A stretch of 64,000 nt of DNA from Rhynchopus sp. YZ270_cl-10. Lineage: Eukaryota. The notes under the pieces were generated by a model. That model did no database searches, was not told the origin of the DNA, and saw only the letters and a list, made by a program, of their open reading frames with translations. The position numbers and the translations under genes were made by a program. This document shows, piece by piece, positions 1,531-30,714 of this stretch. Each line of letters starts with the position of its first letter. The stretch's first letter is position 1. The DNA is taken from the NCBI GenBank assembly GCA_964035575.1, contig OZ037839.1:1054001-1118000 (forward strand), read 5' to 3'.

Positions 1531-1981
1531 ATAAACGTTTTTAAAAATAGGATGGAGCACCCCGGTCCGAAAAGGAATGCAGCCACCCCTGGCTTCAGGC
1601 TCGCGAACCCAGCGTTGATGTAACACAGGGTTTCACGGGCCAAAAACCAGAAAGAAAAATGAAAAATTGAGGGTTCAACGACTGCGCCAACTGGTCTCAT
1701 GCGACGTTGAACCAACTTAAAATCTAGAATCTTGTGTCAACTTGTAAAGAAAAGCAATGAATATTAAAAGTTACCGGTTTCAGGCGTGGTGTACACGTCT
1801 GCTGCCATCTACGCTGGGATAGCAGTCCGGCTTGAACTTGGGGTCCAACAACAGTGCCAAGTGGACTTATGCGTCGCTGTGTCAACTGAAAAACAATGAA
1901 AAACAAGAATGTCGTTGAGGAAGATTGAAATGCATGAAAAAAACAAATGCATGAAAAAAACAAGAAGAACAAGGTAAATCT

Positions 1982-2578
1982 CTACAGAGGGTGCTGTCCT
2001 AGCTTGTCCTCTTTCGTTGTCTCGCCCACACTAAGCTTCTCAACGGCCGTGCAGGCGAGCTTTGTGGCGTTCACGTTGTTACTGCTGTCGATGTGCACCA
2101 ACGTGATGCTTCGGGTCGCTCTCAGCTTGTCAAGCTCACCCCGCGCCTCTTTCTGGAGGTGGGCGACTGCCGCGTATGGTCTGCAGTGCTCGTTCACCTG
2201 GTCAACCACGGTTCTACTGGATCCGTAGATGTTCAGTGGTGGGGTGTCTGTGTCGCTCTTCAGGTATTCGAGGCACATCAGCAGTCCTTCATACTCCGCG
2301 ACGTTCAGGGGTGTGTCCGCCAGGCGACTACTGGCTGTCCACCGCACCTCGCCGTCTATCTCGAGGCGTGCTCCAGCGCCCGATCCCTGGCAAGTGTTTT
2401 TCTTCACCCTCGCCCCCGGCTGCCTCACGTTGCAGTATCCGCCGAAGAAGATGCGAGTGTGTCCGGTGGGTTTCTTAGGCTTGCGTCGATCCTGCTTCTG
2501 CTGCTTCTGCTCAGCAGCCAAACGGATGTGCTTCGCAATTCTGTTCGCTCTCTCCTGTTTGCAGTCCTCTTCTAGGCA
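1982..2578 (-). CDS. C-terminal RNase H-fold domain of the retroelement ORF, predicted catalytically inactive
   Basis: RNase HI-like pattern IFFGG..PG..GAGA..NVAEYEGL..LNIYGSS..VVDQV..HI...N..ATKLA; in frame with the RT ORF once MITE 2581-3408 and one TA are removed. Confidence 0.8.
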   Translation of the reverse strand, partial: CLEEDCKQERANRIAKHIRLAAEQKQQKQDRRKPKKPTGHTRIFFGGYCNVRQPGARVKKNTCQGSGAGARLEIDGEVRWTASSRLADTPLNVAEYEGLLMCLEYLKSDTDTPPLNIYGSSRTVVDQVNEHCRPYAAVAHLQKEARGELDKLRATRSITLVHIDSSNNVNATKLACTAVEKLSVGETTKEDKLGQHPL

Positions 2579-2580
2579 TA

Positions 2581-3408
2581 CTGTGCAGGCGAGCCGTTTT
2601 TAGGCGAGTTTTTCGTTTTCCTGATTTTCAGGAAAAACTCGCCAAAAACTCGCCCTACTCGCCCATTACTCGCCTATTACTCGCCAAAACTCGCCAAAAA
2701 CTCGCCAAAACTCGCCTAAACTCGCCTAAACTCGCCTAAACTCGCCAAAAACTCGCCTAAACTCGCCCCAATTTGGGTGCAAATCCTGGTGCACATACGC
2801 ACCTTGGGGGTGAAAATGTGCACCAGGATGTGAAAATGGAGGGCGGGGGTGACTGATGACAACATGCCACTCGAAAACACACAAAAAAATTGAAATTGTG
2901 TCACTTGTACGTCTAAAGGCAACCATGTCACGGCAGTGGCTGACAGGCATGTATGTAAACATTTGCTCCAGGGGAAGATCCAGGCGTGCCATAGATCCCG
3001 GGGGACAAGACGTGCTACAATCCGGAGGATGACGAAGACATGAGCCGGGGCTACACTCGCTATACAACAATGTCCTCGCCATGCCGGTAAATGGCAACCC
3101 TGCAGGCCACCCCCACGACTACATCGCACCCATCTGTGCAAGCTTCATGGATCCGCAGAAGCTACAGCTGGACTGGTGGTACTGGTTGTGGAAGCCTACA
3201 AAGCAAACTGTAGAGGTCTTGTTCAAGTGGAACGAAAAAAATTTTCTCTTCAAAACTCAAATTTCCCTCATATTTTCGTGTGTACACTTTTCCCAAGGTA
3301 AAATCCCTACCAAAAAAAAAAAACTCGCCAAAACTCGCCCCCCAAAAATAGGCGAGTTTTAGGCGAGTTTTTGGCGAGTAGGCGAGTTTTTTTTACTCGC
3401 CCGCACAG
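2581..3408. mobile_element. MITE with TA target duplication (Tc1/mariner-like signature) inserted in the RT ORF
   Basis: TIRs CTGTGCAGGCGAG / CTCGCCCGCACAG; TA at 2579-2580 and 3409-3410; subterminal AAACTCGCC repeats. Confidence 0.88.
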
Positions 3409-6400: not shown

Positions 6401-6702
6401 CGGATGCGCGTCATCTTGAGGGTCTCTCCTGCGTCGCCTTCGCGAGACTGTCTGCTGCACAGCCAGGTGCGTCGAAGTTTGGGTGGTCGGCCTTTGCGGA
6501 AACATGCTGCTGAGTTGTCGTCTCCCTGCCGTGCCCAGAAGTTGGTCGCATCCTCATTCCATGCTTTCCACTTGTCCTCTACCAATGTGCTTGCGTGCCA
6601 TTGTGCTTTGGAACCATCGCAGATCTCTTCAGCCTCCTTTTCCAGGTCTGCCTTCGTTTTCTTCCTGCTCAGGTCATCCTGTTGTAGCATAGGGGGCCTT
6701 TC
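3409..6702 (-). CDS. Non-LTR reverse transcriptase with CCHC zinc finger (5'-truncated ORF)
   Basis: Motifs KAPSTDG, HRPISV, FLDIKKCFDTI, GILQGCALS, LYADD; CEHCGTGVEDFEHMWEQC; no endonuclease domain seen in the retained part. Confidence 0.95.
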
Positions 6703-7302
6703 CAGTCGCCAACCTCGCTTCGGTAAACGTTTTTTAAAAATAGGATGGAGCACCCCGGTCCGAAAAGGAATGCAGCCACCCCTGGCTTCAGGCTCGCGAA
6801 CCCAGTATTGCAGTAACACTGGGTCTCACGGGCCAAAAACCGAACAAAGAAAAGGAAAATGTTTGGGTTCAGCGACAGCGCCAATGGGCTGACGCGAGGC
6901 TGAACCAACTTAAAATAAAATAACACTCAATCCCAAATTTTTGTCCAAACTGGGTATTTTTTAAAATAAAGAACAACTATTCAAAACCGTAAAATTCTTG
7001 CTTTAATTGATTTTTCTGGTAAAACCTATGAACACGCAAAAAAAATCGACCAGATTCGTTGAGTGACTAAAACCCAATCACCCATAGAGAGAGAGACCCA
7101 AAACGGTGATTTTCCCTGTAATTCCTTAAGGAATTGCCTTTGCCATTTGAAAAAATATTATGACCGCAAAAATGGCAACATGTAATCTGTGATGCTCAAA
7201 AGTGCAAAATTCTTGCTCCAATGGATTCTCCGGGTATATATTGTACCTGGAGAATATGCTCATATCACTCTTCAGACCATCTGGGGTATGGTCACACACA
7301 GG

Positions 7303-8078
7303 TAGTATACACAGTATACACAGTATACACAGTATACACAGTATACACAGTATACACAGTATACACAGTATACACAGTATACACAGTATACACAGTATAC
7401 ACAGTATACACAGTATACACAGTATACACAGTATACACAGTATACACAGTATACACAGTATACACAGTATACACAGTATACACAGTATACACAGTATACA
7501 CAGTATACACAGTATACACAGTATACACAGTATACACAGTATACACAGTATACACAGTATACACAGTATACACAGTATACACAGTATACACAGTATACAC
7601 AGTATACACAGTATACACAGTATACACAGTATACACAGTATACACAGTATACACAGTATACACAGTATACACAGTATACACAGTATACACAGTATACACA
7701 GTATACACAGTATACACAGTATACACAGTATACACAGTATACACAGTATACACAGTATACACAGTATACACAGTATACACAGTATACACAGTATACACAG
7801 TATACACAGTATACACAGTATACACAGTATACACAGTATACACAGTATACACAGTATACACAGTATACACAGTATACACAGTATACACAGTATACACAGT
7901 ATACACAGTATACACAGTATACACAGTATACACAGTATACACAGTATACACAGTATACACAGTATACACAGTATACACAGTATACACAGTATACACAGTA
8001 TACACAGTATACACAGTATACACAGTATACACAGTATACACAGTATACACAGTATACACAGTATACACAGTATACACA
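7303..8078. repeat. (AGTATACAC)n 9-bp tandem repeat
   Basis: Pure tandem array read directly. Confidence 0.98.
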
Positions 8079-8101
8079 GGGGATTGGGAGTACAGTATAC
8101 T

Positions 8102-8887
8102 GTACAGTACAGTACAGTACAGTACAGTACAGTACAGTACAGTACAGTACAGTACAGTACAGTACAGTACAGTACAGTACAGTACAGTACAGTACAGTAC
8201 AGTACAGTACAGTACAGTACAGTACAGTACAGTACAGTACAGTACAGTACAGTACAGTACAGTACAGTACAGTACAGTACAGTACAGTACAGTACAGTAC
8301 AGTACAGTACAGTACAGTACAGTACAGTACAGTACAGTACAGTACAGTACAGTACAGTACAGTACAGTACAGTACAGTACAGTACAGTACAGTACAGTAC
8401 AGTACAGTACAGTACAGTACAGTACAGTACAGTACAGTACAGTACAGTACAGTACAGTACAGTACAGTACAGTACAGTACAGTACAGTACAGTACAGTAC
8501 AGTACAGTACAGTACAGTACAGTACAGTACAGTACAGTACAGTACAGTACAGTACAGTACAGTACAGTACAGTACAGTACAGTACAGTACAGTACAGTAC
8601 AGTACAGTACAGTACAGTACAGTACAGTACAGTACAGTACAGTACAGTACAGTACAGTACAGTACAGTACAGTACAGTACAGTACAGTACAGTACAGTAC
8701 AGTACAGTACAGTACAGTACAGTACAGTACAGTACAGTACAGTACAGTACAGTACAGTACAGTACAGTACAGTACAGTACAGTACAGTACAGTACAGTAC
8801 AGTACAGTACAGTACAGTACAGTACAGTACAGTACAGTACAGTACAGTACAGTACAGTACAGTACAGTACAGTACAGTACAGTACAG
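8102..8887. repeat. (AGTAC)n microsatellite
   Basis: Pure tandem array read directly. Confidence 0.98.
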
Positions 8888-9692
8888 TGCGATTCACATA
8901 TCAGACAAGATCTCGTTAGGCGTATACTTCTGGGCCTCGTTCACTTCATAAACCACAGATGCAATTTTTTGAGCCTACGACCCCACATTTAACTCATTTC
9001 GATCCGCTGATTTCAATCCCAAAAAATATTTCAAAAAAATATTTCTGGTGTGGCACCTTAACCGATTCTCCGTGGTTCTACCCGTTGTCCCTCCGTAAAG
9101 GGGGGGTATGGATGTTGGAAAACAGGCCTTCATATGCACCTTCGGTACAACGTCGCAGGCAGGCCAAACAGCGTTTTGAATTTGTTGTTTGTGAGCTACC
9201 CGCATGTGGAAGGCCCACTTCTCAGAATTCACGACATTTTTTCTCGACCCGATTGGTGGAGTACATATTTGTTATCACCCCCTGGTTACCCTACTGACAC
9301 ATTTTCAAAAGAATCGGCGTTAAAGAAAATCAGAATGCTCGATGTTCACGCGTGGGATAGTTTTTCACGAGTATAAAGTACGGTGTGAACAGCTCATGTA
9401 TTGGTGCACTCTCTCTGATCTCTTTGACCGGACATATGTGCAACACATGCACTCCTCCTCGCGTGTGCAGTTGATGAAGCTGTTGCAAGCGTCTTATCCA
9501 TTGCAGTCTCAAGAGAAATACGTCTGACAGCAGACGAGTTCGGGGCCGGACATCCACTCAAATGCAGGACATGTCTCTAATGTCCTAATCCTGTGCACCA
9601 AGCACCACCCCAGGCGCTTCGCGGCAAAGGGCAGGCTTAGCCCAGCCCTTAGCCGCGAAGCGACTGGGGGGTCTGGGGGGCGGAGCCCCCCA

Positions 9693-12600
9693 GCGAAATT
9701 TTTTGACTTAACACTGCTTGTGCTTAGAAAACCCGAATTTTTTACCCTTCAAAATTGCATTTGAGGAACTCACAACGCGTCAAAACGAAAAGGTCGTTTT
9801 TGGCACTTTTAAAACCGGGCTCCGCTGAGTTCACCATATTTTTGCTCGATTTATTTAGTGGAGTAACTAATTAGTAATCGTATTCTCGGACAAAAATTCG
9901 GGACGAGGTGTTAGATAATTCCCCTGTATTTTACTAAGGGAAAATCCCTAGTAAAATACAGGCAAAAATCCAGGTAAAAATCACTTTGTCTCGATTTTTT
10001 AGTAAAAATACAGGGTGCAACGAAACCAGAAAAAAACTTCGCCATTGGACGTTTCTGGGTTCCGAGCTTTTAACGCAAAAAAAATCTATTTTTTTTTCGC
10101 GAAATTTTTTGACTTAACACTGCTTGTGCTTAGAAAACCCGAATTTTTTACCCTTCAAAATTGCATTTGAGGAACTCACAACGCGTCAAAACGAAAAGGT
10201 CGTTTTTGGCACTTTTAAAACCGGGCTCCGCTGAGTTCACCATATTTTTGCTCGATTTATTTAGTGGAGTAACTAATTAGTAATCGTATTCTCGGACAAA
10301 AATTCGGGACGAGGTGTTAGATAATTCCCCTGTATTTTACTAAGGGAAAATCCCTAGTAAAATACAGGCAAAAATCCAGGTAAAAATCACTTTGTCTCGA
10401 TTTTTTAGTAAAAATACAGGGTGCAACGAAACCAGAAAAAAACTTCGCCATTGGACGTTTCTGGGTTCCGAGCTTTTAACGCAAAAAAAATCTATTTTTT
10501 TTTCGCGAAATTTTTTGACTTAACACTGCTTGTGCTTAGAAAACCCGAATTTTTTACCCTTCAAAATTGCATTTGAGGAACTCACAACGCGTCAAAACGA
10601 AAAGGTCGTTTTTGGCACTTTTAAAACCGGGCTCCGCTGAGTTCACCATATTTTTGCTCGATTTATTTAGTGGAGTAACTAATTAGTAATCGTATTCTCG
10701 GACAAAAATTCGGGACGAGGTGTTAGATAATTCCCCTGTATTTTACTAAGGGAAAATCCCTAGTAAAATACAGGCAAAAATCCAGGTAAAAATCACTTTG
10801 TCTCGATTTTTTAGTAAAAATACAGGGTGCAACGAAACCAGAAAAAAACTTCGCCATTGGACGTTTCTGGGTTCCGAGCTTTTAACGCAAAAAAAATCTA
10901 TTTTTTTTTCGCGAAATTTTTTGACTTAACACTGCTTGTGCTTAGAAAACCCGAATTTTTTACCCTTCAAAATTGCATTTGAGGAACTCACAACGCGTCA
11001 AAACGAAAAGGTCGTTTTTGGCACTTTTAAAACCGGGCTCCGCTGAGTTCACCATATTTTTGCTCGATTTATTTAGTGGAGTAACTAATTAGTAATCGTA
11101 TTCTCGGACAAAAATTCGGGACGAGGTGTTAGATAATTCCCCTGTATTTTACTAAGGGAAAATCCCTAGTAAAATACAGGCAAAAATCCAGGTAAAAATC
11201 ACTTTGTCTCGATTTTTTAGTAAAAATACAGGGTGCAACGAAACCAGAAAAAAACTTCGCCATTGGACGTTTCTGGGTTCCGAGCTTTTAACGCAAAAAA
11301 AATCTATTTTTTTTTCGCGAAATTTTTTGACTTAACACTGCTTGTGCTTAGAAAACCCGAATTTTTTACCCTTCAAAATTGCATTTGAGGAACTCACAAC
11401 GCGTCAAAACGAAAAGGTCGTTTTTGGCACTTTTAAAACCGGGCTCCGCTGAGTTCACCATATTTTTGCTCGATTTATTTAGTGGAGTAACTAATTAGTA
11501 ATCGTATTCTCGGACAAAAATTCGGGACGAGGTGTTAGATAATTCCCCTGTATTTTACTAAGGGAAAATCCCTAGTAAAATACAGGCAAAAATCCAGGTA
11601 AAAATCACTTTGTCTCGATTTTTTAGTAAAAATACAGGGTGCAACGAAACCAGAAAAAAACTTCGCCATTGGACGTTTCTGGGTTCCGAGCTTTTAACGC
11701 AAAAAAAATCTATTTTTTTTTCGCGAAATTTTTTGACTTAACACTGCTTGTGCTTAGAAAACCCGAATTTTTTACCCTTCAAAATTGCATTTGAGGAACT
11801 CACAACGCGTCAAAACGAAAAGGTCGTTTTTGGCACTTTTAAAACCGGGCTCCGCTGAGTTCACCATATTTTTGCTCGATTTATTTAGTGGAGTAACTAA
11901 TTAGTAATCGTATTCTCGGACAAAAATTCGGGACGAGGTGTTAGATAATTCCCCTGTATTTTACTAAGGGAAAATCCCTAGTAAAATACAGGCAAAAATC
12001 CAGGTAAAAATCACTTTGTCTCGATTTTTTAGTAAAAATACAGGGTGCAACGAAACCAGAAAAAAACTTCGCCATTGGACGTTTCTGGGTTCCGAGCTTT
12101 TAACGCAAAAAAAATCTATTTTTTTTTCGCGAAATTTTTTGACTTAACACTGCTTGTGCTTAGAAAACCCGAATTTTTTACCCTTCAAAATTGCATTTGA
12201 GGAACTCACAACGCGTCAAAACGAAAAGGTCGTTTTTGGCACTTTTAAAACCGGGCTCCGCTGAGTTCACCATATTTTTGCTCGATTTATTTAGTGGAGT
12301 AACTAATTAGTAATCGTATTCTCGGACAAAAATTCGGGACGAGGTGTTAGATAATTCCCCTGTATTTTACTAAGGGAAAATCCCTAGTAAAATACAGGCA
12401 AAAATCCAGGTAAAAATCACTTTGTCTCGATTTTTTAGTAAAAATACAGGGTGCAACGAAACCAGAAAAAAACTTCGCCATTGGACGTTTCTGGGTTCCG
12501 AGCTTTTAACGCAAAAAAAATCTATTTTTTTTTCGCGAAATTTTTTGACTTAACACTGCTTGTGCTTAGAAAACCCGAATTTTTTACCCTTCAAAATTGC

Positions 12601-15600
12601 ATTTGAGGAACTCACAACGCGTCAAAACGAAAAGGTCGTTTTTGGCACTTTTAAAACCGGGCTCCGCTGAGTTCACCATATTTTTGCTCGATTTATTTAG
12701 TGGAGTAACTAATTAGTAATCGTATTCTCGGACAAAAATTCGGGACGAGGTGTTAGATAATTCCCCTGTATTTTACTAAGGGAAAATCCCTAGTAAAATA
12801 CAGGCAAAAATCCAGGTAAAAATCACTTTGTCTCGATTTTTTAGTAAAAATACAGGGTGCAACGAAACCAGAAAAAAACTTCGCCATTGGACGTTTCTGG
12901 GTTCCGAGCTTTTAACGCAAAAAAAATCTATTTTTTTTTCGCGAAATTTTTTGACTTAACACTGCTTGTGCTTAGAAAACCCGAATTTTTTACCCTTCAA
13001 AATTGCATTTGAGGAACTCACAACGCGTCAAAACGAAAAGGTCGTTTTTGGCACTTTTAAAACCGGGCTCCGCTGAGTTCACCATATTTTTGCTCGATTT
13101 ATTTAGTGGAGTAACTAATTAGTAATCGTATTCTCGGACAAAAATTCGGGACGAGGTGTTAGATAATTCCCCTGTATTTTACTAAGGGAAAATCCCTAGT
13201 AAAATACAGGCAAAAATCCAGGTAAAAATCACTTTGTCTCGATTTTTTAGTAAAAATACAGGGTGCAACGAAACCAGAAAAAAACTTCGCCATTGGACGT
13301 TTCTGGGTTCCGAGCTTTTAACGCAAAAAAAATCTATTTTTTTTTCGCGAAATTTTTTGACTTAACACTGCTTGTGCTTAGAAAACCCGAATTTTTTACC
13401 CTTCAAAATTGCATTTGAGGAACTCACAACGCGTCAAAACGAAAAGGTCGTTTTTGGCACTTTTAAAACCGGGCTCCGCTGAGTTCACCATATTTTTGCT
13501 CGATTTATTTAGTGGAGTAACTAATTAGTAATCGTATTCTCGGACAAAAATTCGGGACGAGGTGTTAGATAATTCCCCTGTATTTTACTAAGGGAAAATC
13601 CCTAGTAAAATACAGGCAAAAATCCAGGTAAAAATCACTTTGTCTCGATTTTTTAGTAAAAATACAGGGTGCAACGAAACCAGAAAAAAACTTCGCCATT
13701 GGACGTTTCTGGGTTCCGAGCTTTTAACGCAAAAAAAATCTATTTTTTTTTCGCGAAATTTTTTGACTTAACACTGCTTGTGCTTAGAAAACCCGAATTT
13801 TTTACCCTTCAAAATTGCATTTGAGGAACTCACAACGCGTCAAAACGAAAAGGTCGTTTTTGGCACTTTTAAAACCGGGCTCCGCTGAGTTCACCATATT
13901 TTTGCTCGATTTATTTAGTGGAGTAACTAATTAGTAATCGTATTCTCGGACAAAAATTCGGGACGAGGTGTTAGATAATTCCCCTGTATTTTACTAAGGG
14001 AAAATCCCTAGTAAAATACAGGCAAAAATCCAGGTAAAAATCACTTTGTCTCGATTTTTTAGTAAAAATACAGGGTGCAACGAAACCAGAAAAAAACTTC
14101 GCCATTGGACGTTTCTGGGTTCCGAGCTTTTAACGCAAAAAAAATCTATTTTTTTTTCGCGAAATTTTTTGACTTAACACTGCTTGTGCTTAGAAAACCC
14201 GAATTTTTTACCCTTCAAAATTGCATTTGAGGAACTCACAACGCGTCAAAACGAAAAGGTCGTTTTTGGCACTTTTAAAACCGGGCTCCGCTGAGTTCAC
14301 CATATTTTTGCTCGATTTATTTAGTGGAGTAACTAATTAGTAATCGTATTCTCGGACAAAAATTCGGGACGAGGTGTTAGATAATTCCCCTGTATTTTAC
14401 TAAGGGAAAATCCCTAGTAAAATACAGGCAAAAATCCAGGTAAAAATCACTTTGTCTCGATTTTTTAGTAAAAATACAGGGTGCAACGAAACCAGAAAAA
14501 AACTTCGCCATTGGACGTTTCTGGGTTCCGAGCTTTTAACGCAAAAAAAATCTATTTTTTTTTCGCGAAATTTTTTGACTTAACACTGCTTGTGCTTAGA
14601 AAACCCGAATTTTTTACCCTTCAAAATTGCATTTGAGGAACTCACAACGCGTCAAAACGAAAAGGTCGTTTTTGGCACTTTTAAAACCGGGCTCCGCTGA
14701 GTTCACCATATTTTTGCTCGATTTATTTAGTGGAGTAACTAATTAGTAATCGTATTCTCGGACAAAAATTCGGGACGAGGTGTTAGATAATTCCCCTGTA
14801 TTTTACTAAGGGAAAATCCCTAGTAAAATACAGGCAAAAATCCAGGTAAAAATCACTTTGTCTCGATTTTTTAGTAAAAATACAGGGTGCAACGAAACCA
14901 GAAAAAAACTTCGCCATTGGACGTTTCTGGGTTCCGAGCTTTTAACGCAAAAAAAATCTATTTTTTTTTCGCGAAATTTTTTGACTTAACACTGCTTGTG
15001 CTTAGAAAACCCGAATTTTTTACCCTTCAAAATTGCATTTGAGGAACTCACAACGCGTCAAAACGAAAAGGTCGTTTTTGGCACTTTTAAAACCGGGCTC
15101 CGCTGAGTTCACCATATTTTTGCTCGATTTATTTAGTGGAGTAACTAATTAGTAATCGTATTCTCGGACAAAAATTCGGGACGAGGTGTTAGATAATTCC
15201 CCTGTATTTTACTAAGGGAAAATCCCTAGTAAAATACAGGCAAAAATCCAGGTAAAAATCACTTTGTCTCGATTTTTTAGTAAAAATACAGGGTGCAACG
15301 AAACCAGAAAAAAACTTCGCCATTGGACGTTTCTGGGTTCCGAGCTTTTAACGCAAAAAAAATCTATTTTTTTTTCGCGAAATTTTTTGACTTAACACTG
15401 CTTGTGCTTAGAAAACCCGAATTTTTTACCCTTCAAAATTGCATTTGAGGAACTCACAACGCGTCAAAACGAAAAGGTCGTTTTTGGCACTTTTAAAACC
15501 GGGCTCCGCTGAGTTCACCATATTTTTGCTCGATTTATTTAGTGGAGTAACTAATTAGTAATCGTATTCTCGGACAAAAATTCGGGACGAGGTGTTAGAT

Positions 15601-17218
15601 AATTCCCCTGTATTTTACTAAGGGAAAATCCCTAGTAAAATACAGGCAAAAATCCAGGTAAAAATCACTTTGTCTCGATTTTTTAGTAAAAATACAGGGT
15701 GCAACGAAACCAGAAAAAAACTTCGCCATTGGACGTTTCTGGGTTCCGAGCTTTTAACGCAAAAAAAATCTATTTTTTTTTCGCGAAATTTTTTGACTTA
15801 ACACTGCTTGTGCTTAGAAAACCCGAATTTTTTACCCTTCAAAATTGCATTTGAGGAACTCACAACGCGTCAAAACGAAAAGGTCGTTTTTGGCACTTTT
15901 AAAACCGGGCTCCGCTGAGTTCACCATATTTTTGCTCGATTTATTTAGTGGAGTAACTAATTAGTAATCGTATTCTCGGACAAAAATTCGGGACGAGGTG
16001 TTAGATAATTCCCCTGTATTTTACTAAGGGAAAATCCCTAGTAAAATACAGGCAAAAATCCAGGTAAAAATCACTTTGTCTCGATTTTTTAGTAAAAATA
16101 CAGGGTGCAACGAAACCAGAAAAAAACTTCGCCATTGGACGTTTCTGGGTTCCGAGCTTTTAACGCAAAAAAAATCTATTTTTTTTTCGCGAAATTTTTT
16201 GACTTAACACTGCTTGTGCTTAGAAAACCCGAATTTTTTACCCTTCAAAATTGCATTTGAGGAACTCACAACGCGTCAAAACGAAAAGGTCGTTTTTGGC
16301 ACTTTTAAAACCGGGCTCCGCTGAGTTCACCATATTTTTGCTCGATTTATTTAGTGGAGTAACTAATTAGTAATCGTATTCTCGGACAAAAATTCGGGAC
16401 GAGGTGTTAGATAATTCCCCTGTATTTTACTAAGGGAAAATCCCTAGTAAAATACAGGCAAAAATCCAGGTAAAAATCACTTTGTCTCGATTTTTTAGTA
16501 AAAATACAGGGTGCAACGAAACCAGAAAAAAACTTCGCCATTGGACGTTTCTGGGTTCCGAGCTTTTAACGCAAAAAAAATCTATTTTTTTTTCGCGAAA
16601 TTTTTTGACTTAACACTGCTTGTGCTTAGAAAACCCGAATTTTTTACCCTTCAAAATTGCATTTGAGGAACTCACAACGCGTCAAAACGAAAAGGTCGTT
16701 TTTGGCACTTTTAAAACCGGGCTCCGCTGAGTTCACCATATTTTTGCTCGATTTATTTAGTGGAGTAACTAATTAGTAATCGTATTCTCGGACAAAAATT
16801 CGGGACGAGGTGTTAGATAATTCCCCTGTATTTTACTAAGGGAAAATCCCTAGTAAAATACAGGCAAAAATCCAGGTAAAAATCACTTTGTCTCGATTTT
16901 TTAGTAAAAATACAGGGTGCAACGAAACCAGAAAAAAACTTCGCCATTGGACGTTTCTGGGTTCCGAGCTTTTAACGCAAAAAAAATCTATTTTTTTTTC
17001 GCGAAATTTTTTGACTTAACACTGCTTGTGCTTAGAAAACCCGAATTTTTTACCCTTCAAAATTGCATTTGAGGAACTCACAACGCGTCAAAACGAAAAG
17101 GTCGTTTTTGGCACTTTTAAAACCGGGCTCCGCTGAGTTCACCATATTTTTGCTCGATTTATTTAGTGGAGTAACTAATTAGTAATCGTATTCTCGGACA
17201 AAAATTCGGGACGAGGTG
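9693..17218. repeat. 406-bp tandem satellite, about 18.5 units, each containing the transposon right TIR
   Basis: GGACGAGGTG recurs at 9901, 10307, ... 17209 (18 x 406); units look identical by eye. Confidence 0.97.
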
Positions 17219-17384
17219 TAAAAGATCTTGTATCAACTTGAAAAGGAAAAGCAATGAACAGCAACAGAGCCATTTGGGCTTACGCGTCGCTATAGTAACT
17301 GAAAAACAATGTTTTAAAAACAAGAATGTCGTTGACCAAGATTGAAATACACGAAAAAGGTAAAATACTAAGAATTGCCTCATA

Positions 17385-19800
17385 TTCCATGGGCATCGTT
17401 GCTGATGTTGTAGTTTGTCTGCTGAGTGATCACGCGCCCCCCCTACTAGGGAGGTCTTAGGTTCAGGCTTCGGCTAGCACGTAAAAGCTACCATGTCGCC
17501 GAAGTTAGCGGTCCTCGTATTCCATGAGGTCTTTCAGATGTTGTTGTTTGACTGCTGAGTGATCACGCGCCCCCCCTACTAGGGAGGTCTTAGGTTCAGG
17601 CTTCGGCTTGCACGTAAAGAACTACCATGTAGTCGAAGTTAGCGGTCCTCGTATTCCATGAGGCATTTCTGATGATGTTGTTTGTCTGCTGAGTGATCAC
17701 GCGCCCCCCCTACTAGGGAGGTCTTAGGATCATGCTTCGGCTTGCACGTAAAGAACTACCATGTCGCCGAAGTTAGCGGTCCTCGTATTCCATGAGGTCT
17801 TTCAGATGTTGTTGTTTGACTGCTGAGTGATCACGCGCCCCCCCTACTAGGGAGGTCTTAGGTTCATGCTTCGGCTTGCACGAAAAAAGCTACCATGTCG
17901 CCGAAGTTAGCGGTCCTCGTATTCCATGAGGTCTTTCAGATGTAGTTTGTCTGCTGAGTGATCACGCGCCCCCCCTACTAGGGAGGTCTTAGGTTCAGGC
18001 TTCGGCTTGCACGTAAAAGCTACCATGTCGTCGAAGTTAGCGGTCCTCGTATTCCATGAGGTCTTTCAGATGTTGTTGTTTGACTGCTGAGTGATCACGC
18101 GCCCCCCCTACTAGGGAGGTCTTAGGTTCATGCTTCGGCTTGCACGTAAAAGCTACCATGTCGTCGAAGTTAGCGGTCCTCGTATTCCATGAGGTCTTTC
18201 AGATGTTGTTGTTTGTCTGCTGAGTGATCACGCGCCCCCCCTACTAGGGAGGTCTTAGGTTCATGCTTCGGCTAGCACGTAAAAGCTACCATGTCGCCGA
18301 AGTTAGCGGTCCTCGTATTCCATGAGGTCTTTCAGATGTTGTTGTTTGACTGCTGAGTGATCACGCGCCCCCCCTACTAGGGAGGTCTTAGGTTCATGCT
18401 TCGGCTTGCACGAAAAAAGCTACCATGTCGTCGAAGTTAGCGGTCCTCGTATTCCATGAGGTCTTTCAGATGTTGTTGTTTGACTGCTGAGTGATCACGC
18501 GCCCCCCCTACTAGGGAGGTCTTAGGTTCATGCTTCGGCTTGCACGTAAAGAACTACCATGTCGCCGAAGTTAGCGGTCCTCGTATTCCATGAGGTCTTT
18601 CAGATGTTGTTGTTTGTCTGCTGAGTGATCACGCGCCCCCCCCTACTAGGGAGGTCTTAGGTTCATGCTTCGGCTAGCACGTAAAAGCTACCATGTCGCC
18701 GAAGTTAGCGGTCCTCGTATTCCATGAGGTCTTTCAGATGTAGTTTGTCTGCTGAGTGATCACGCGCCCCCCCTACTAGGGAGGTCTTAGGTTCAGGCTT
18801 CGGCTTGCACGTAAAAGCTACCATGTCGTCGAAGTTAGCGGTCCTCGTATTCCATGAGGTCTTTCAGATGTTGTTGTTTGACTGCTGAGTGATCACGCGC
18901 CCCCCCTACTAGGGAGGTCTTAGGTTCATGCTTCGGCTTGCACGTAAAAGCTACCATGTCGTCGAAGTTAGCGGTCCTCGTATTCCATGAGGTCTTTCAG
19001 ATGTTGTTGTTTGTCTGCTGAGTGATCACGCGCCCCCCCTACTAGGGAGGTCTTAGGTTCATGCTTCGGCTTGCACGTAAAGAACTACCATGTCGCCGAA
19101 GTTAGCGGTCCTCGTATTCCATGAGGTCTTTCAGATGTTGTTGTTTGTCTGCTGAGTGATCACGCGCCCCCCCCTACTAGGGAGGTCTTAGGTTCATGCT
19201 TCGGCTAGCACGTAAAAGCTACCATGTCGCCGAAGTTAGCGGTCCTCGTATTCCATGAGGTCTTTCAGATGTTGTTGTTTGACTGCTGAGTGATCACGCG
19301 CCCCCCCTACTAGGGAGGTCTTAGGTTCATGCTTCGGCTTGCACGAAAAAAGCTACCATGTCGTCGAAGTTAGCGGTCCTCGTATTCCATGAGGCATTTC
19401 TGATGTAGTTTGTCTGCTGAGTGATCACGCGCCCCCCCTACTAGGGAGGTCTTAGGTTCAGGCTTCGGTTTGCACGTAAAAGCTACCATGTCGTCGAAGT
19501 TAGCGGTCCTCGTATTCCATGAGGCATTTCTGATGATGTAGTTTGTCTGCTGAGTGATCACGCGCCCCCCCTACTAGGGAGGTCTTAGGTTCATGCTTCG
19601 GCTTGCACGTAAAAGCTACCATGTCGTCGAAGTTAGCGGTCCTCGTATTCCATGAGGTCTTTCAAATGTTGTTGTTTGACTGCTGAGTGATCACGCGCCC
19701 CCCCTACTAGGGAGGTCTTGGGTTCAGGCTTCGGCTAGCACGTAAAAAGCTACCATGTCGCGAAGTTAGCGGTCCTCGTATTCCATGAGGCACTTCAGAT
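17385..19800. repeat. About 133-bp tandem repeat (about 18 units) in retroelement B
   Basis: Recurrent GTGATCACGCGCCCCCCCTACTAGGGAGGTC with a few alternating variant blocks. Confidence 0.96.
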
Positions 19801-19822
19801 GTTGTTCTTCTTTTTCTTCTTG

Positions 19823-19890
19823 TTCCGAGTCTTTGCCGCAGTCCACTGCGTTGCCCGGGGTCACCTCGTGGAGGTGCTCGGTAAAACCCC
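19823..19890 (-). ncRNA. Predicted HDV-like self-cleaving ribozyme at the 5' end of element B
   Basis: GGGGUU-UUA-CCGAGC-ACC-UCCACGA-GGU-GACCCC-GG-GCAA-CGCAG-UGGA-CUGCG-GCAAA-GACUCGG fits P1/P2/P3/L3/P1.1/P4/J4-2; predicted cleavage site 1 nt from the TSD. Confidence 0.8.
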
Positions 19891-19891
19891 T

Positions 19892-20169
19892 GTCGCCAAC
19901 CTCGCTTCGGAAATGTCTGTCTCACCCAAGGCACGAAGTGCCTCAACAGATGCGTACTTAGTAGTTTTCGTCAACACGACTGTGTCTCCAGCACTCAGTT
20001 CTGTGATGTCCTCTCCTTCCTCCTTCCCTCCGAAGCCCATGCGGAAGCTGTCTTCGCCCAACCCTGTTGCAGACGCCACCTTCTGCCGCATCGTCTCCGT
20101 TGTGTCGTTCTCACCCACCTCAATCACGTATTTGGTGTCATCATCATATCCCTGCACACACAGTTCCAT
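19892..20169 (-). pseudogene. Ubiquitin-like/LRR gene copy 1, 5' (ubiquitin-like) half
   Basis: MELCVQGY...IEVGENDTTETMRQKVASATGL...FRMGFGGK...GDTVVL...EARLAT, as in intact paralogs. Confidence 0.9.
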
Positions 20170-21232: not shown

Positions 21233-22726
21233 TTATGCTGCCCCCAACTCTCCAAATCCTCTTTTTGTTCCTCTTTTTTGTCCTCTTGTGCTTGCATCAA
21301 TCTCTTCTCTCTCTTGTCCTGCTTTCAATTCAATACATTGTCTTGCACTTCCAGACACGTCTGTTCGTACTGCCTCAAAAGCTTCTATCCGCACATCCCC
21401 GAACTGTTCCGTAAACCTTGCGTAAATCTCACGCACACGTGCATAGAAGGCCTCCTTGTAGGTGCTCATTCTAGGGTCTCCATTCGGGAGAGACAACATC
21501 TCGTCAATGTCGATGTTGCCTGGCAAGACGACTGTTGTGAGTGCGTTGCAGTTGAGCAGGAAGTTGCGCTGCGGGATCTCTGTGTCCCTGCCAAAACCTG
21601 ACATGTCCAGCGTGGTCAAGGATGTGCAATCTTGCAGGAAACGTCCATCAATCCGACTAACATTGCTCATTCCTGAGAAGTCTGCTGTTGTCAACGCGGA
21701 GCACTCTTGCAGCCAGCCGCGCTTAATGTGCATGATGCTGCGCAACACTGATAAATCAACTGTTTGCAATGATGTGCAGTGATAAAGAAACTCTGGCCCA
21801 ATGGCTGCGACCCTGCCAAAAGCTGAAAGGTCGATACTCTCCAACGAGGTGCAGTCCGAACAAAAGTCGCTACCAATTTCCGTCACATTCGTCATCCCTG
21901 AAAAGCTGATGGTGGTCAACGACTCGCAGTTGGAGAGAAAGTTGGAGTCGATCTTCGTGACACTGCAAAAAGCTGACAAATCAATGGTTGCCAACGAGGT
22001 GCAGTTCTGGAGGAAGCCGTCCTCAATGTGCGTGATTCTGCGCCATCCTGAGATGTCAATCCTTTTCAACGACTGGCAGAATTCAAGAAAGCTTGTACCA
22101 ACCTCCGTCACACTCGTCATATGGGATAAGTCAAGATTTGTGACGCCACTTCCTGCGAGGAACCTGTTCCCTATCACCGTCACACCAGTGAACCCTGACA
22201 CGTCAAGGCTTGTCAACGATGTGCAGCAAGAGAGACAGCCATACTCGATGTGCGTAACGTTGCACAATCCCGACAAGTCAACGGTTGTAACCGACGTACA
22301 CCCGGAGAGGAAGCCGTCCTCAATTCGTGTCACACCAGACACAGCAGAGAGATCAAGTCTCGTAAACGATGCATCGCACAAGAAGTAGTCCGGAATAACA
22401 GTCGCAACCTCCGCCTGAAGAAGCAGAGAAGCCACCTCAGGATCCTCCACAGTCGCCAACCTCGCTTCGGAAATGTCTGTCTCACCCAAGGCACGAAGTG
22501 CCTCAACAGATTGGTACTTCGTCGACTTCGTCAACACGACTGTGTCTCCAGCACTCAGTTCTGTGATGTCCTCTCCTTCCTCCTTCCCTCCGAAGCCCAT
22601 GCGGAAGCTGTCTTCGCACAACCCTGTTGCAGACGCCACCTTCTGCCGCATCGTCTCCGTTGTGTCGTTCTCACCCACCTCAATCACGTATTTGGTATCA
22701 TCATATCCCTGCACACACAGTTCCAT
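21233..22726 (-). CDS. Ubiquitin-like domain + BspA-type LRR protein (copy 2, intact)
   Basis: Open frame from MELCVQGY; N-terminal Ubl-like pattern, 24-aa LRRs, charged C-terminal tail; empty target site around 22450-22480. Confidence 0.9.
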   Translation of the reverse strand: MELCVQGYDDTKYVIEVGENDTTETMRQKVASATGLCEDSFRMGFGGKEEGEDITELSAGDTVVLTKSTKYQSVEALRALGETDISEARLATVEDPEVASLLLQAEVATVIPDYFLCDASFTRLDLSAVSGVTRIEDGFLSGCTSVTTVDLSGLCNVTHIEYGCLSCCTSLTSLDVSGFTGVTVIGNRFLAGSGVTNLDLSHMTSVTEVGTSFLEFCQSLKRIDISGWRRITHIEDGFLQNCTSLATIDLSAFCSVTKIDSNFLSNCESLTTISFSGMTNVTEIGSDFCSDCTSLESIDLSAFGRVAAIGPEFLYHCTSLQTVDLSVLRSIMHIKRGWLQECSALTTADFSGMSNVSRIDGRFLQDCTSLTTLDMSGFGRDTEIPQRNFLLNCNALTTVVLPGNIDIDEMLSLPNGDPRMSTYKEAFYARVREIYARFTEQFGDVRIEAFEAVRTDVSGSARQCIELKAGQEREEIDASTRGQKRGTKRGFGELGAA

Positions 22727-26226: not shown

Positions 26227-27294
26227 TTATGCTGCCCCCAACTCTCCAAATCCTCTTTTTGTTCCTCTTTTTTGTCCTCTTGTGCTTGCATCAATCCCTT
26301 CTCTCTCTTGTCCTGCTTTCAATGCAATACATTGTCTTGCACTTCCAGACACGTCTGTTTGTACTGCCTCAAAAGCTTCTATCCGCACACCTCTGAACTG
26401 TTCCGCAAACCTTGCGTAAATCTCACGCACACGTACATAGAAGGCCTCCTTGTAGGTGCTCATTCTTGGGTCTCCATTCGGGAGAGACAACATCTCGTCA
26501 ATGTCGATGTTGCCTGGCAAGACGACTGTTGTGAGTGCGTTGCAGTTGATCAGGAAGTTGCGCTGCTGGATCTCTGTGTCCCTGCCAAAACCTGACATGT
26601 CCAGCGTGGTCAAGGATGTGCAATCTTGCAGGAAACAACTATCAATCAGCGTAACATTGCTCATTCCTGAGAAGTTTGCTGTTGTCAACGCGGAACACCC
26701 TTGCAGCCAGTTTTGCTCAATGTGTATGATGCTGCGCAACACTGATAAATCAACTGTTTTCAATGATGTGCACTTCCTAAGAAACTCTGACTCAATAAAT
26801 GCGACATTGCCAAAAGCTGAGAGGTCGATACTCTCCAGCGAGGTGCAGCTCTCAAGAAAGCCGTACTTTACCTTCACAACCCTGTGCAGTGCTGTCAAGT
26901 CAATCGTTTTCAACGAGGTGCAGGACGAACAAAACTGGTTCCCAATTTTCGTCACACTCGTCATCTCGGATAAGTCAAGATTTGTGACGCCACTTTGTGC
27001 GAGGAACGAGCTCCCTATCACCGTCACACCAGTGAACCCTGACACGTCAAGGCAGAGAGACAGCCATCCCCGATGTGCGTAACGTTGCACAATCCCGACA
27101 AGTCAACGGTTTCCACTGACCCACACCCGCGGAGGAAGTAGCGCTCAATTCGTGTCACACCAGACACAGCAGAGAGATCAAGTCTCGTAAACGATGCTTG
27201 CGCCAAGAAGTAGTCCGGAATAACAGTCGCAACCTCCGCCTGAAGAAGCAGAGAAGCCACCTCAGGATCCTTCACAGTCGCCAACCTCGCTTCG
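26227..27294 (-). pseudogene. Ubiquitin-like/LRR gene copy 4, 3' half (split by element C; frameshifting deletion near 27053)
   Basis: LRR homology spread over two frames (ORFs 26227-27090 and 27024-27284); about 19 nt missing relative to paralogs. Confidence 0.88.
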
Positions 27295-27654
27295 GTAAAC
27301 GTTTTTTAAAAATAGGATGGAGCACCCCGGTCCGAAAAGGAATGCAGCCACCCCTGGCTTCAGGCTCGCGAACCCAGTATTGCAGTAACACTGGGTCTCA
27401 CGGGCCAAAAACCGAACAAAGAAAAGTAAAATGTTTGGGTTCAGCGACAGCGCCAATGGGCTGACGCGAGGCTGAACCAACTTAAAATAAAATAAAAAAA
27501 TCTTGTATCAACTTGAAAAGGAAAAGCAATGAACAGCAACAGAGCCATTTGGGCTTACGCGTCGCTATAGTAACTGAAAAACAATGTTCTAAAAACAAGA
27601 ATGTCGTTGACCAAGATTGAAATACACGAAAAAGGTAAAATACTAAGAATTGCC

Positions 27655-30345
27655 TCATATTCCATGGGCATCGTTTCTGATGTTGTAGTTTGTCTGCTGA
27701 GTGATCACGCGCCCCCCCTACTAGGGAGGTCTTAGGTTCATGCTTCGGCTAGCACGTAAAAGCTACCATGTCGTCGAAGTTAGCGGTCCTCGTATTCCAT
27801 GAGGTCTTTCAGATGTTGTTGTTTGTCTGCTGAGTGATCACGCGCCCCCCCTACTAGGGAGGTCTTAGGTTCAGGCTTCGGCTTGCACGTAAAAGCTACC
27901 ATGTCGTCGAAGTTAGCGGTCCTCGTATTCCATGAGGTCTTTCAGATGTTGTTGTTTGTCTGCTGAGTGATCACGCGCCCCCCCTACTAGGGAGGTCTTA
28001 GGTTCAGGCTTCGGCTAGCACGTAAAAGCTACCATGTCGTCGAAGTTAGCGGTCCTCGTATTCCATGAGGCATTTCTGATGATGTAGTTTGTCTGCTGAG
28101 TGATCACGCGCCCCCCCTACTAGGGAGGTCTTAGGTTCATGCTTCGGCTTGCACGTAAAAGCTACCATGTCGTCGAAGTTAGCGGTCCTCGTATTCCATG
28201 AGGTCTTTCAGATGTTGTTGTTTGACTGCTGAGTGATCACGCGCCCCCCCTACTAGGGAGGTCTTAGGTTCAGGCTTCGGCTTGCACGTAAAGAACTACC
28301 ATGTAGTCGAAGTTAGCGGTCCTCGTATTCCATGAGGCATTTCTGATGATGTAGTTTGTCTGCTGAGTGATCACGCGCCCCCCCTACTAGGGAGGTCTTA
28401 GGTTCATGCTTCGGCTTGCACGTAAAGAACTACCATGTCGCCGAAGTTAGCGGTCCTCGTATTCCATGAGGTCTTTCAGATGTTGTTGTTTGTCTGCTGA
28501 GTGATCACGCGCCCCCCCTACTAGGGAGGTCTTAGGTTCGGGCTTCGGCTTGCACGTAAAAGCTACCATGTCGTCGAAGTTAGCGGTCCTCGTATTCCAT
28601 GAGGCATTTCTGATGATGTAGTTTGTCTGCTGAGTGATCACGCGCCCCCCCTACTAGGGAGGTCTTAGGTTCATGCTTCGGCTTGCACGTAAAGAACTAC
28701 CATGTCGCCGAAGTTAGCGGTCCTCGTATTCCATGAGGCATTTCTGATGATGTAGTTTGTCTGCTGAGTGATCACGCGCCCCCCCTACTAGGGAGGTCTT
28801 AGGTTCGGGCTTCGGCTTGCACGTAAAAGCTACCATGTCGTCGAAGTTAGCGGTCCTCGTATTCCATGAGGCATTTCTGATGATGTAGTTTGTCTGCTGA
28901 GTGATCACGCGCCCCCCCTACTAGGGAGGTCTTAGGTTCATGCTTCGGCTTGCACGTAAAGAACTACCATGTCGCCGAAGTTAGCGGTCCTCGTATTCCA
29001 TGAGGTCTTTCAGATGTTGTTGTTTGACTGCTGAGTGATCACGCGCCCCCCCTACTAGGGAGGTCTTAGGTTCGGGCTTCGGCTTGCACGTAAAAGCTAC
29101 CATGTCGCCGAAGTTAGCGGTCCTCGTATTCCATGAGGTCTTTCAGATGTTGTTGTTTGACTGCTGAGTGATCACGCGCCCCCCCTACTAGGGAGGTCTT
29201 AGGTTCATGCTTCGGCTAGCACGTAAAAGCTACCATGTCGTCGAAGTTAGCGGTCCTCGTATTCCATGAGGTCTTTCAGATGTTGTTGTTTGTCTGCTGA
29301 GTGATCACGCGCCCCCCCTACTAGGGAGGTCTTAGGTTCATGCTTCGGCTTGCACGTAAAAGCTACCATGTCGCCGAAGTTAGCGGTCCTCGTATTCCAT
29401 GAGGCATTTCTGATGATGTAGTTTGTCTGCTGAGTGATCACGCGCCCCCCCTACTAGGGAGGTCTTAGGTTCATGCTTCGGCTTGCACGTAAAAGCTACC
29501 ATGTCGTCGAAGCTAGCGGTCCTCGTATTCCATGAGGCATTTCTGATGATGTAGTTTGTCTGCTGAGTGATCACGCGCCCCCCCTACTAGGGAGGTCTTA
29601 GGTTCATGCTTCGGCTTGCACGTAAAAGCTACCATGTCGCCGAAGTTAGCGGTCCTCGTATTCCATGAGGCATTTCTGATGATGTAGTTTGTCTGCTGAG
29701 TGATCACGCGCCCCCCCTACTAGGGAGGTCTTAGGTTCATGCTTCGGCTTGCACGTAAAAGCTACCATGTCGCCGAAGTTAGCGGTCCTCGTATTCCATG
29801 AGGCATTTCTGATGATGTAGTTTGTCTGCTGAGTGATCACGCGCCCCCCCTACTAGGGAGGTCTTAGGTTCGGGCTTCGGCTTGCACGTAAAAGCTACCA
29901 TGTCGTCGAAGTTAGCGGTCCTCGTATTCCATGAGGTCTTTCAGATGTTGTTGTTTGACTGCTGAGTGATCACGCGCCCCCCCTACTAGGGAGGTCTTAG
30001 GTTCATGCTTCGGCTTGCACGTAAAAGCTACCATGTCGTCGAAGTTAGCGGTCCTCGTATTCCATGAGGCATTTCTGATGATGTAGTTTGTCTGCTGAGT
30101 GATCACGCGCCCCCCCTACTAGGGAGGTCTTAGGTTCATGCTTCGGCTTGCACGTAAAAGCTACCATGTCGTCGAAGTTAGCGGTCCTCGTATTCCATGA
30201 GGTCTTTCAGATGTTGTTGTTTGACTGCTGAGTGATCACGCGCCCCCCCTACTAGGGAGGTCTTGGGTTCAGGCTTCGGCTAGCACGTAAAAAGCTACCA
30301 TGTCGCGAAGTTAGCGGTCCTCGTATTCCATGAGGCACTTCAGAT
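27655..30345. repeat. About 133-bp tandem repeat (about 20 units) in retroelement C
   Basis: Same unit as 17385-19800 with a different order of variants. Confidence 0.96.
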
Positions 30346-30367
30346 GTTGTTCTTCTTTTTCTTCTTG

Positions 30368-30435
30368 TTCCGAGTCTTTGCCGCAGTCCACTGCGTTGCC
30401 CGGGGTCACCTCGTGGAGGTGCTCGGTAAAACCCC
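30368..30435 (-). ncRNA. Predicted HDV-like ribozyme at the 5' end of element C
   Basis: Same sequence as 19823-19890; abuts the TSD with one extra G. Confidence 0.8.
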
Positions 30436-30436
30436 C

Positions 30437-30714
30437 GTCGCCAACCTCGCTTCGGAAATGTCTGTCTCACCCAAGGCACGAAGTTCCTCAACAGATTGGT
30501 ACTTGGTAGTTTTCGCCAACACGACTGTGTCTCCAGCACTCAGTTCTGTGATGTCCTCTCCTTCCTCCTTCCCTCCGAAGCCCATGCGGAAGCTGTCTTC
30601 GCACAACCCTGTTGCAGACGCCACCTTCTGCCGCATCGTCTCCGTTGTGTCGTTCTCACCCACCTCAATCACGAATTTGTTTTCATCATCATATCCCTGC
30701 ACACACAGTTCCAT
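30437..30714 (-). pseudogene. Ubiquitin-like/LRR gene copy 4, 5' half
   Basis: MELCVQGY...EARLAT, then element C. Confidence 0.9.

What the first reader, a model, noticed from the sequence alone, without database searches (positions are those of the whole stretch)
19823..19891. HDV-like ribozyme defines the 5' end of the non-autonomous elements (also 30368-30436)
Seen: the minus strand can form P1 GGGGUU/GACCCC, P2 CCGAG/CUCGG, P3 ACC/GGU, L3 UCCACGA, P1.1 CC/GG, P4 CGCAG/CUGCG and J4/2 GCAAA with a candidate catalytic C. The GGGCAAC after P1 matches the HDV genomic ribozyme, and the predicted cut lies one nucleotide from the TSD in both copies. Known: R2 and L1Tc use 5' HDV-like ribozymes to release themselves from co-transcripts. 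Inference: the element is cut out of the host LRR transcript, which would explain the strict co-orientation.
Basis: partly seen in the sequence, partly recalled or inferred. Interest (0 to 1): 0.8.

Follow-up and report, generated by a model that had tools for sequence, protein, structure and literature searches.

The report
Ribozyme-headed retroelement targeting host LRR genes
A jumping-gene family that always lands at one 19-base site in a repeated host gene starts with a hepatitis-delta-type RNA fold that likely cuts the element's RNA out of the host transcript, and in coding copies the same stretch reads in frame with the host gene, so the element may also borrow the host's start codon.

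Summary
Both copies form an HDV-like nested double pseudoknot: Rfam RF02682 at 37.7 bits, below the gathering score of 44; my descriptor found 2 hits in the window and 1 in 200 shuffles. G1 lies one base inside a 19-bp target-site duplication. The two elements are non-autonomous derivatives: 83 nt of 5' end, a 133-bp array, and a 3' tail shared with a reverse-transcriptase element at the same site. Four insertions in the window use this site in ubiquitin-like/LRR genes. Protein records show the autonomous partner (ORF2: OTU protease, AP endonuclease, RT, RNase H-like) carries the same ribozyme. In 5 of 7 ORF1 records it reads as protein in the host frame, into a ubiquitin domain lacking Met1 and ending LRGG. 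Release from the host transcript is likely (0.8) and has precedents (L1Tc/NARTc, R2). Cleavage is untested, and no two-sided covariation was seen. Co-orientation is not evidence, because ribozyme-less insertions share it. The most novel reading (0.35): uncut transcripts supply host-started ORF1 fusion protein trimmed at LRGG, and cut RNA serves as template.

The parts
19823..19890 (-). HDV-like ribozyme fold, copy 1 (G1 = 19890, candidate catalytic C = 19835, P2 ends 19825)
30368..30435 (-). HDV-like ribozyme fold, copy 2 (G1 = 30435); core identical to copy 1
19891..19891 (-). single extra base (A) between TSD and G1; copy 2 has G at 30436, the empty site has T; likely non-templated
   Evidence: interpretation inferred
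19808..19890 (-). 5' 83 nt shared with the autonomous element (ribozyme plus start of acidic linker); contigs branch off into ORF1 at 19808
6724..19891 (-). non-autonomous element 1 (13,168 bp including a nested insert of about 10.3 kb at about 6921-17220)
27296..30436 (-). non-autonomous element 2 (3,141 bp)
17404..19806 (-). 133-bp tandem array, 18.1 copies, body of element 1; non-coding, origin unknown
27653..30350 (-). 133-bp tandem array, 20.2 copies, body of element 2
27296..27650 (-). 3' tail homologous to the RT element's 3' untranslated region, ending in a predicted stem-loop shared by all four insertions; no poly(A)
19892..19910 (-). 19-bp target-site copy 5' of element 1
6705..6723 (-). 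target-site copy between element 1 and the tandem RT element
1513..1531 (-). target-site copy 3' of the RT element (1 mismatch); host LRR gene resumes
30437..30455 (-). target-site copy 5' of element 2
27277..27295 (-). target-site copy 3' of element 2
1532..6704 (-). 5'-truncated autonomous-type element: RT and zf-RVT, RNase H-like domain (1985-2575), interrupted by a MITE-like insert at 2577-3412
39283..39885 (-). 603-nt insertion at the same site; shares only the last 57 nt; no HDV fold found
19892..20169 (-). 5' part of host ubiquitin-like/LRR gene (ATG at 20169; G1 lies 279 nt = 93 codons downstream)
30437..30714 (-). 5' part of the second host gene (ATG at 30714; G1 279 nt downstream)
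22452..22470 (-). empty target site in an uninterrupted paralog (also 25616-25634 and 41837-41855)

Best explanation
The stretch is an HDV-type ribozyme fold that starts one base inside the 5' end of two copies of a non-autonomous, site-specific retroelement in ubiquitin-like/LRR genes, and it likely cuts the element's RNA out of the host read-through transcript so that the partner element's endonuclease and reverse transcriptase would copy it into another gene of the family. Shown: the fold; 4 insertions at one 19-bp site with duplications and a common 3' end; an autonomous partner with the same ribozyme ahead of ORF1 and an ORF2 with OTU, AP endonuclease, RT, zinc-binding and RNase H-like domains. 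Inferred: host transcription runs into the element; C56 catalyses cleavage 5' of G1; ORF2 protein binds the shared 3' stem-loop, nicks the target and primes reverse transcription; the cDNA ends at G1 and gains one extra base. The elements in the window are internal-replacement derivatives (5' 83 nt + 133-bp array + 3' tail), moved in trans.
For: Fold and chance level. A 6-bp P1 is within the family norm, and 3-nt spacers were active though slow (PMC4908430, Results section). Boundary coincides with the predicted cut. The elements differ at 4 of 469 unique bases while their host 5' flanks differ at 10 of 300 (Fisher p = 0.023; all 15 paralog pairs differ at 6-15 of about 300), and the extra base differs (A vs G). 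This favours two separate full-length insertions. The autonomous partner carries the same ribozyme: 7 ORF1 records, and run contigs branch at 19808 into ORF1 codons in 3 of 4 runs laid. All variants seen spare the fold: one J1/2 length change and A16>G (A-U to G.U in P3) in runs X1 and X3, and amino-acid changes in only 3 of 23 ribozyme codons, all over J1/2 or the P4 loop (p = 0.024 if counted as two events). The ribozyme peptide is 20-22 of 23 identical between subfamilies while the adjoining linker is 1-6 of 10. Precedent: L1Tc/NARTc and R2 (PMC3185411, PMC3774820, PMC6765202; passages).
Against: No cleavage data. The score is below Rfam's gathering threshold. No change on both sides of any pair was seen. 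Nested folding gives P1 probabilities from 0.01 to 0.96 depending on context, over-pairs L3, and lets the host target sequence pair with the 3' strand of P2, so folding may be attenuated; that program cannot model the pseudoknot. The window copies have one U fewer in J1/2 than the coding copies and could be slower. Run X4 covered only the 3' part of the fold and run X6 none of it (a filter can cause such holes). Relatives L001-L005 showed no HDV fold (0 of 5), but most lack their 5' end. An internal promoter, as in Pr77, would give the same boundary.
Confidence: 0.8

Rival explanations
1. The first 70-80 bp act mainly as an internal promoter (Pr77-like dual element); the ribozyme only trims or protects the 5' end, and host transcription is not needed.
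For: L1Tc/NARTc in a related protist group have this dual system, and the cut coincides with the transcription start (PMC3185411, PMC5814959; passages). The 83 nt kept by the non-autonomous copies is close to the 77 nt shared by NARTc.
Against: The element sits inside genes that all lie on one strand, so read-through is available. P1 polarity and P1.1 differ from Pr77 (G1 and two pairs here; C1 and one pair in PMC3185411). No promoter test was possible.
Confidence: 0.12
2. The fold is an inactive relic in these two copies, which spread as DNA (paralog duplication, gene conversion or unequal crossing-over) after one old insertion.
For: The two host genes share 5' sequence further upstream (alignment to 20378 and 30926) than other paralogs do. 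The two target copies around the 603-nt insertion differ at one base, a sign of exchange between paralogs. J1/2 is one base shorter than in coding copies.
Against: Elements are closer to each other than their flanks are. The extra base differs. The 4-U form dominates summed contig depth in X1 and X3 and joins at least one further host flank (depth is no copy number).
Confidence: 0.07
3. Chance resemblance to an HDV fold.
For: Below Rfam gathering score; descriptor written after seeing the sequence.
Against: E = 0.0022; 1 hit in 200 shuffles; exact coincidence with the element boundary; variants confined to free positions.
Confidence: 0.01

Closest known systems
L1Tc/NARTc and ingi/RIME of trypanosomes (Pr77 / L1TcRz), with the RHS hot spot
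   Same: AP endonuclease, RT and RNase H order; 5' HDV-like ribozyme shared by autonomous and non-autonomous partners; proposed release from polycistronic RNA; repeated and tandem insertion at one site of a multicopy protein gene family (PMC3185411, PMC12278014, PMC7563717; passages).
   Different: Cut at G1 with 2-bp P1.1 rather than C1 with 1 bp; two ORFs rather than one; OTU and ubiquitin domains; no 2A motif in the 4 family proteins scanned; 19-bp TSD and no poly(A). RHS insertions are described as causing nonsense or frameshift (PMC7563717), whereas coding copies here read on in the host frame.
R2 and its SIDE non-autonomous derivatives
   Same: Strictly site-specific, co-transcribed with the target gene, 5' HDV-like ribozyme, extra bases at 5' junctions, derivatives that keep only the two ends (PMC3774820 passages; PMC3414825 search listing only).
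   Different: R2 targets 28S rDNA and uses a C-terminal endonuclease; this family has an AP endonuclease and targets a protein-coding gene family.
Rfam RF02682 (F. prausnitzii HDV-like ribozyme)
   Same: Best Rfam match; same P3/L3 pattern, GGCAAC junction and bulged A in P2.
   Different: 6-bp P1, shorter J1/2, 37.7 bits against a gathering score of 44; retroelement rather than bacterial gene context.
Organellar group II introns whose RT is translated in frame with the upstream exon and then processed (recalled; search found no paper to cite)
   Same: Analogy for the novel case: the mobile element's protein starts at the host start codon and is trimmed.
   Different: Those elements splice out and restore the host gene; this one disrupts it.

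Membership tests
HDV-like ribozymes | Nested double pseudoknot P1, P2, P3, P1.1, P4 in the right order | tested here: met
HDV-like ribozymes | P1 of 6-7 bp, P3 of 3 bp, 7-nt L3 starting UCC with CG, J1/2 spacer present | tested here: met
   6, 3, 7 and 3 nt; P1 norm from PMC4908430; other norms from the Rfam alignment and recall
HDV-like ribozymes | Catalytic C in J4/2 (C-N-R-A pattern) | tested here: met
   C56 at 19835 aligns with the model's conserved C
HDV-like ribozymes | Rfam gathering score | tested here: not met
   37.7 < 44 bits for RF02682; this lowers membership of that subfamily, not of the fold class
HDV-like ribozymes | Covariation across family members | tested here: inconclusive
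   one one-sided change (A-U to G.U) and loop changes only; no two-sided change
HDV-like ribozymes | Mg2+-dependent self-cleavage at G1 | not testable with these tools
   needs a bench assay
Non-autonomous non-LTR retrotransposon | Target-site duplication, no coding capacity, both ends shared with an RT-coding partner | tested here: met
Ingi clade (L1Tc/ingi) | AP endonuclease, RT, RNase H domain order | tested here: met
   Pfam PF03372, PF00078, PF13456; the RNase H-like domain has Gly where its first acidic catalytic residue is expected (recalled motif)
Ingi clade (L1Tc/ingi) | Pr77-type ribozyme (cut at C1, one-pair P1.1) | tested here: not met
   G1 and two-pair P1.1 against PMC3185411 passages
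Ingi clade (L1Tc/ingi) | Single ORF with 2A motif; poly(A) tail | tested here: not met
   ORF1 ends in a stop in P0008, P0012, P0024, P0030, P0031; only P0015 is fused; no 2A motif in 4 of 4 proteins scanned; no poly(A)
Ingi clade (L1Tc/ingi) | RT phylogeny groups with ingi | not tested
   no named ingi reference came from any call; homologs are unnamed except one Eupelagonema protein
R2 / CRE (restriction-like endonuclease, site-specific) | C-terminal restriction-like endonuclease instead of AP endonuclease | tested here: not met
   AP endonuclease at residues 221-425 of P0001; no such family in the Pfam scans

The most novel reading that the evidence does not exclude
The ribozyme is both catalyst and coding linker, and the element splits one host transcript into two jobs. 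Uncut RNA keeps the host's cap and start codon and is translated through host ubiquitin-like domain, ribozyme peptide and acidic linker into the element's Met-less ubiquitin domain. A deubiquitinase (the element's own OTU or the host's) then cuts after LRGG to free ORF1 protein, with ORF2 reached through a -1 overlap. Cut RNA is the template for insertion. The target site would thus be chosen for its reading frame as well as its copy number: start-codon capture by a LINE.
Probability: 0.35. Interest if true: 0.85.

Novelty: new variant of a known kind. Interest (0 to 1): 0.64.

Why it matters
How ribozyme-cut, uncapped retroelement RNA is translated is open; IRES-like starts are proposed for R2 and L1Tc (PMC6765202, PMC5814959; passages). 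This family makes the question directly testable. One base in J1/2 switches the host frame on (coding copies) or off (these non-coding copies) without touching any pair of the fold, and ORF1 begins with a ubiquitin domain that has no Met1. It also adds a site-specific, AP-endonuclease LINE with a 19-bp target in protein genes, a compact 68-nt ribozyme and natural non-autonomous cargo (83-nt head, about 360-nt tail), of possible use as an insertion tool. I found no description in the library searched, nor the words ribozyme, HDV or site-specific in 7 supplement files of the Diplonema genome paper. Subscription papers and Repbase were not searched.

Tried and rejected
No whole genome is held, so no genome-wide census. 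Viral contigs: 0 of 7 pattern matches confirmed. Metagenomes with ORF1: 0 of 587. With the RT profile: 5 of 131, all 30-38% identical, with no HDV fold by Rfam or a looser descriptor. The ORF1 profile against 1.84 billion representatives returned only P0024 as a full-length match among the best 150; the others have best stretches centred on the ubiquitin domain. No RNA holder listed in the run search; this is no evidence on expression. Only 4 of 17 listed runs were laid; other runs remain unexamined. 133-bp unit: no tRNA, no hammerhead core motif, no Rfam row, no match to family proteins. Atlas searches gave generic RT and cyclase clusters and did not fix clade or organism. Earlier findings: 0 in 3 look-ups. 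No OTU-ubiquitin complex prediction was run, since a pass would follow from likeness to solved structures. No covariance model was built, since the two cores are identical. Ruminski 2011 and Bringaud 2002 are not held and are known here only through citing papers. Searches found no paper for the group II intron analogy or for non-AUG starts in R2. PMC9940879 and the 2A preprint had nothing relevant. Rejected: co-orientation as evidence; P0015's ORF1-ORF2 fusion as the norm (1 record, against 5 with an ORF1 stop).

Full report
Observation. The minus strand at 19823-19890 and 30368-30435 forms an HDV-like nested double pseudoknot. P1 has 6 bp, J1/2 3 nt, P2 6 bp with a bulged A, P3 3 bp, L3 7 nt, P1.1 2 bp and P4 5 bp; J4/2 holds C56 at 19835. 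Rfam matched RF02682 at both places with 37.7 bits and E = 0.0022, below the gathering score of 44; these are the only 2 ribozyme rows of 75. My descriptor, written after seeing the sequence, found these 2 sites and 1 hit in 200 shuffles of 46,406 non-tandem bases. A 6-bp P1 is normal, and 3-nt spacers were active but slow in one tested ribozyme (PMC4908430, passages and Results section). Nested folding supports P3 (0.91-0.99) and P4 (0.69-1.0), gives P1 0.01-0.96 by context, cannot show P1 and P2 together, and lets the host target pair with the 3' strand of P2.

Setting. The window holds a family of ubiquitin-like/LRR genes, all on the minus strand. A 19-bp motif just after the ubiquitin-like domain occurs 10 times with up to 3 mismatches: 3 empty sites and 7 copies flanking 4 insertions. 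The insertions are element 1 (19891-6724, with a nested insert of about 10.3 kb), a 5'-truncated RT element in tandem behind it (6704-1532), element 2 (30436-27296) and a 603-nt piece (39885-39283). All four share a 3' end of about 57 nt that folds as a stem-loop, and none has poly(A). In elements 1 and 2, one base that differs between them and from the empty site separates the duplication from G1. Their unique parts differ at 4 of 469 bases and their host 5' flanks at 10 of 300 (p = 0.023), which favours separate insertions, though the two hosts are close paralogs. The nearest named RT relative is from the diplonemid Eupelagonema (32% identity). With the one-strand gene cluster this suggests a diplonemid host (inference; polycistronic clusters and trans-splicing are described in PMC10161547, passages).

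Autonomous partner. The RT frame matches P0001 (1753 aa) at 100% over the region searched. P0001 has OTU, AP endonuclease, RT and zf-RVT domains and the RNase H-like end found in the window. The OTU catalytic Cys and His motifs align with OTU1. I saw 15 of 19 members of its cluster, plus P0024 (3 of 3) and P0025. These records probably come from the same assembly as the window, so they are further copies and not independent organisms. Seven contain the ribozyme translated as a peptide at the start of ORF1. Contigs of 3 of 4 runs laid branch from the window at 19808 into codons for the ORF1 linker and ubiquitin start (read by eye). Elements 1 and 2 therefore keep the first 83 nt of the autonomous element, then 18-20 copies of a 133-bp unit of unknown origin, then a tail homologous to its 3' untranslated region.

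Variation. Runs X1 and X3 each show one contig with A16>G (P3 A-U to G.U) and one with an extra U in J1/2, both minor by depth. X4 covers only the 3' part of the fold and X6 none. Among 5 protein records with the whole peptide, 3 of 23 codons vary, all over J1/2 or the P4 loop. Between subfamilies the ribozyme peptide is 20-22 of 23 identical and the ubiquitin domain 71-73 of 74, while the linker between them is 1-6 of 10 and the next 200 residues about 60%. Both modules look constrained. No two-sided change was seen, so covariation is not shown.

Mechanism. Most likely (0.8) host transcription enters the element, the ribozyme cuts before G1, and ORF2 protein uses the shared 3' stem-loop to prime reverse transcription at the 19-bp site of another paralog, adding one extra base at the 5' junction. 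L1Tc/NARTc and R2 work this way (PMC3185411, PMC3774820, PMC6765202; passages). Cleavage, 5' ends in vivo and trans-mobilisation are inferred. Co-orientation does not test this: the two insertions without a ribozyme point the same way.

The reading-frame finding. G1 lies exactly 93 codons behind the host ATG in both window copies, where the 4-U J1/2 leads to a stop. In 5 of 7 ORF1 records the host frame runs through the ribozyme into ORF1: P0015 and P0031 from a host-type Met, P0025 at a different site in a host ubiquitin-like domain, P0012 with its host frame broken upstream, and P0024 behind another element. The other 2 (P0008, P0030) were called from a GTG inside the ribozyme and their junctions are unseen. 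ORF1's ubiquitin domain has Arg at the Met1 position, its first Met at residue 50, and ends RLRGG. The linker differs by 8 whole codons in P0025, and 3 of 5 differences between the X1 and X3 loose ends are synonymous (by eye). So ORF1 is likely translated from upstream of its first ATG. Whether it starts at the host ATG is open. Only in-frame junctions show up as fused proteins, copies at the fixed site share one frame (prior chance 1 in 3), and IRES-like or GUG starts on cut RNA are the established proposal for R2 and L1Tc. I put host-start use at 0.35. ORF2 overlaps the end of ORF1 in the -1 frame in both subfamilies (compatible runs of 37 and 19 codons against at most 6 in cross-pair controls).

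Comparison. It works like L1Tc/NARTc in the RHS hot spot and like R2 with its SIDEs. It fails ingi membership on ribozyme type, ORF number, 2A motif and tail, and R2/CRE membership on endonuclease type; RT phylogeny was not tested. RHS insertions are reported to break the host frame (PMC7563717, passages). No description turned up in searches, or in 7 supplement files of PMC10161547 (8 are listed in the paper); subscription papers and repeat databases could hold one.

Verdict. A real HDV-like ribozyme fold at the 5' end of a site-specific LINE family and its non-autonomous derivatives: a new variant of a known kind, with a testable and more unusual in-frame link to the host gene. Interest 0.64.

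Noticed in passing
window 6921-17220: Insert of about 10.3 kb nested in element 1, with imperfect terminal inverted repeats, an 18.5-copy 406-bp array at 100% identity and two long microsatellites; likely a DNA transposon, and the perfect array may be an assembly product.
   Followed up: partly
window 2577-3412: 836-bp MITE-like insert with terminal inverted repeats and a 6-bp duplication splits the RT element's ORF2 ahead of the RNase H-like domain.
   Followed up: partly
window 39283-39885: 603-nt insertion at the same site sharing only the last 57 nt, perhaps a second non-autonomous family; its two target copies differ at one base.
   Followed up: partly
window 17404-19806 and 27653-30350: The 133-bp unit has several predicted hairpins; run X6 holds it without covering the ribozyme, so it may also occur in other settings.
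   Followed up: partly
   Followed up: partly
L001:447 and L002:2069: Distant relatives carry a 2A-like E-x-x-N-P-G motif just before the AP endonuclease, where this family has OTU instead.
   Followed up: no
P0011, P0006: A 5'-truncated copy lies in frame with a host ubiquitin-like domain, and another sits in tandem behind a prior insertion, at the homologous site.
   Followed up: no
window 32368-37551 and 23473-23888: 1727-codon frame without Pfam match; its 5' 416 bp are duplicated at 99.8%.
   Followed up: no
window 43062-45086: Membrane protein resembling adenylate/guanylate cyclases by Atlas features; no Pfam match.
   Followed up: no
window 45744-46048, 51105-51338, 59095-59309; 55400-58208: Further dispersed inverted repeats and microsatellite-filled elements, likely other transposon families.
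   Followed up: no
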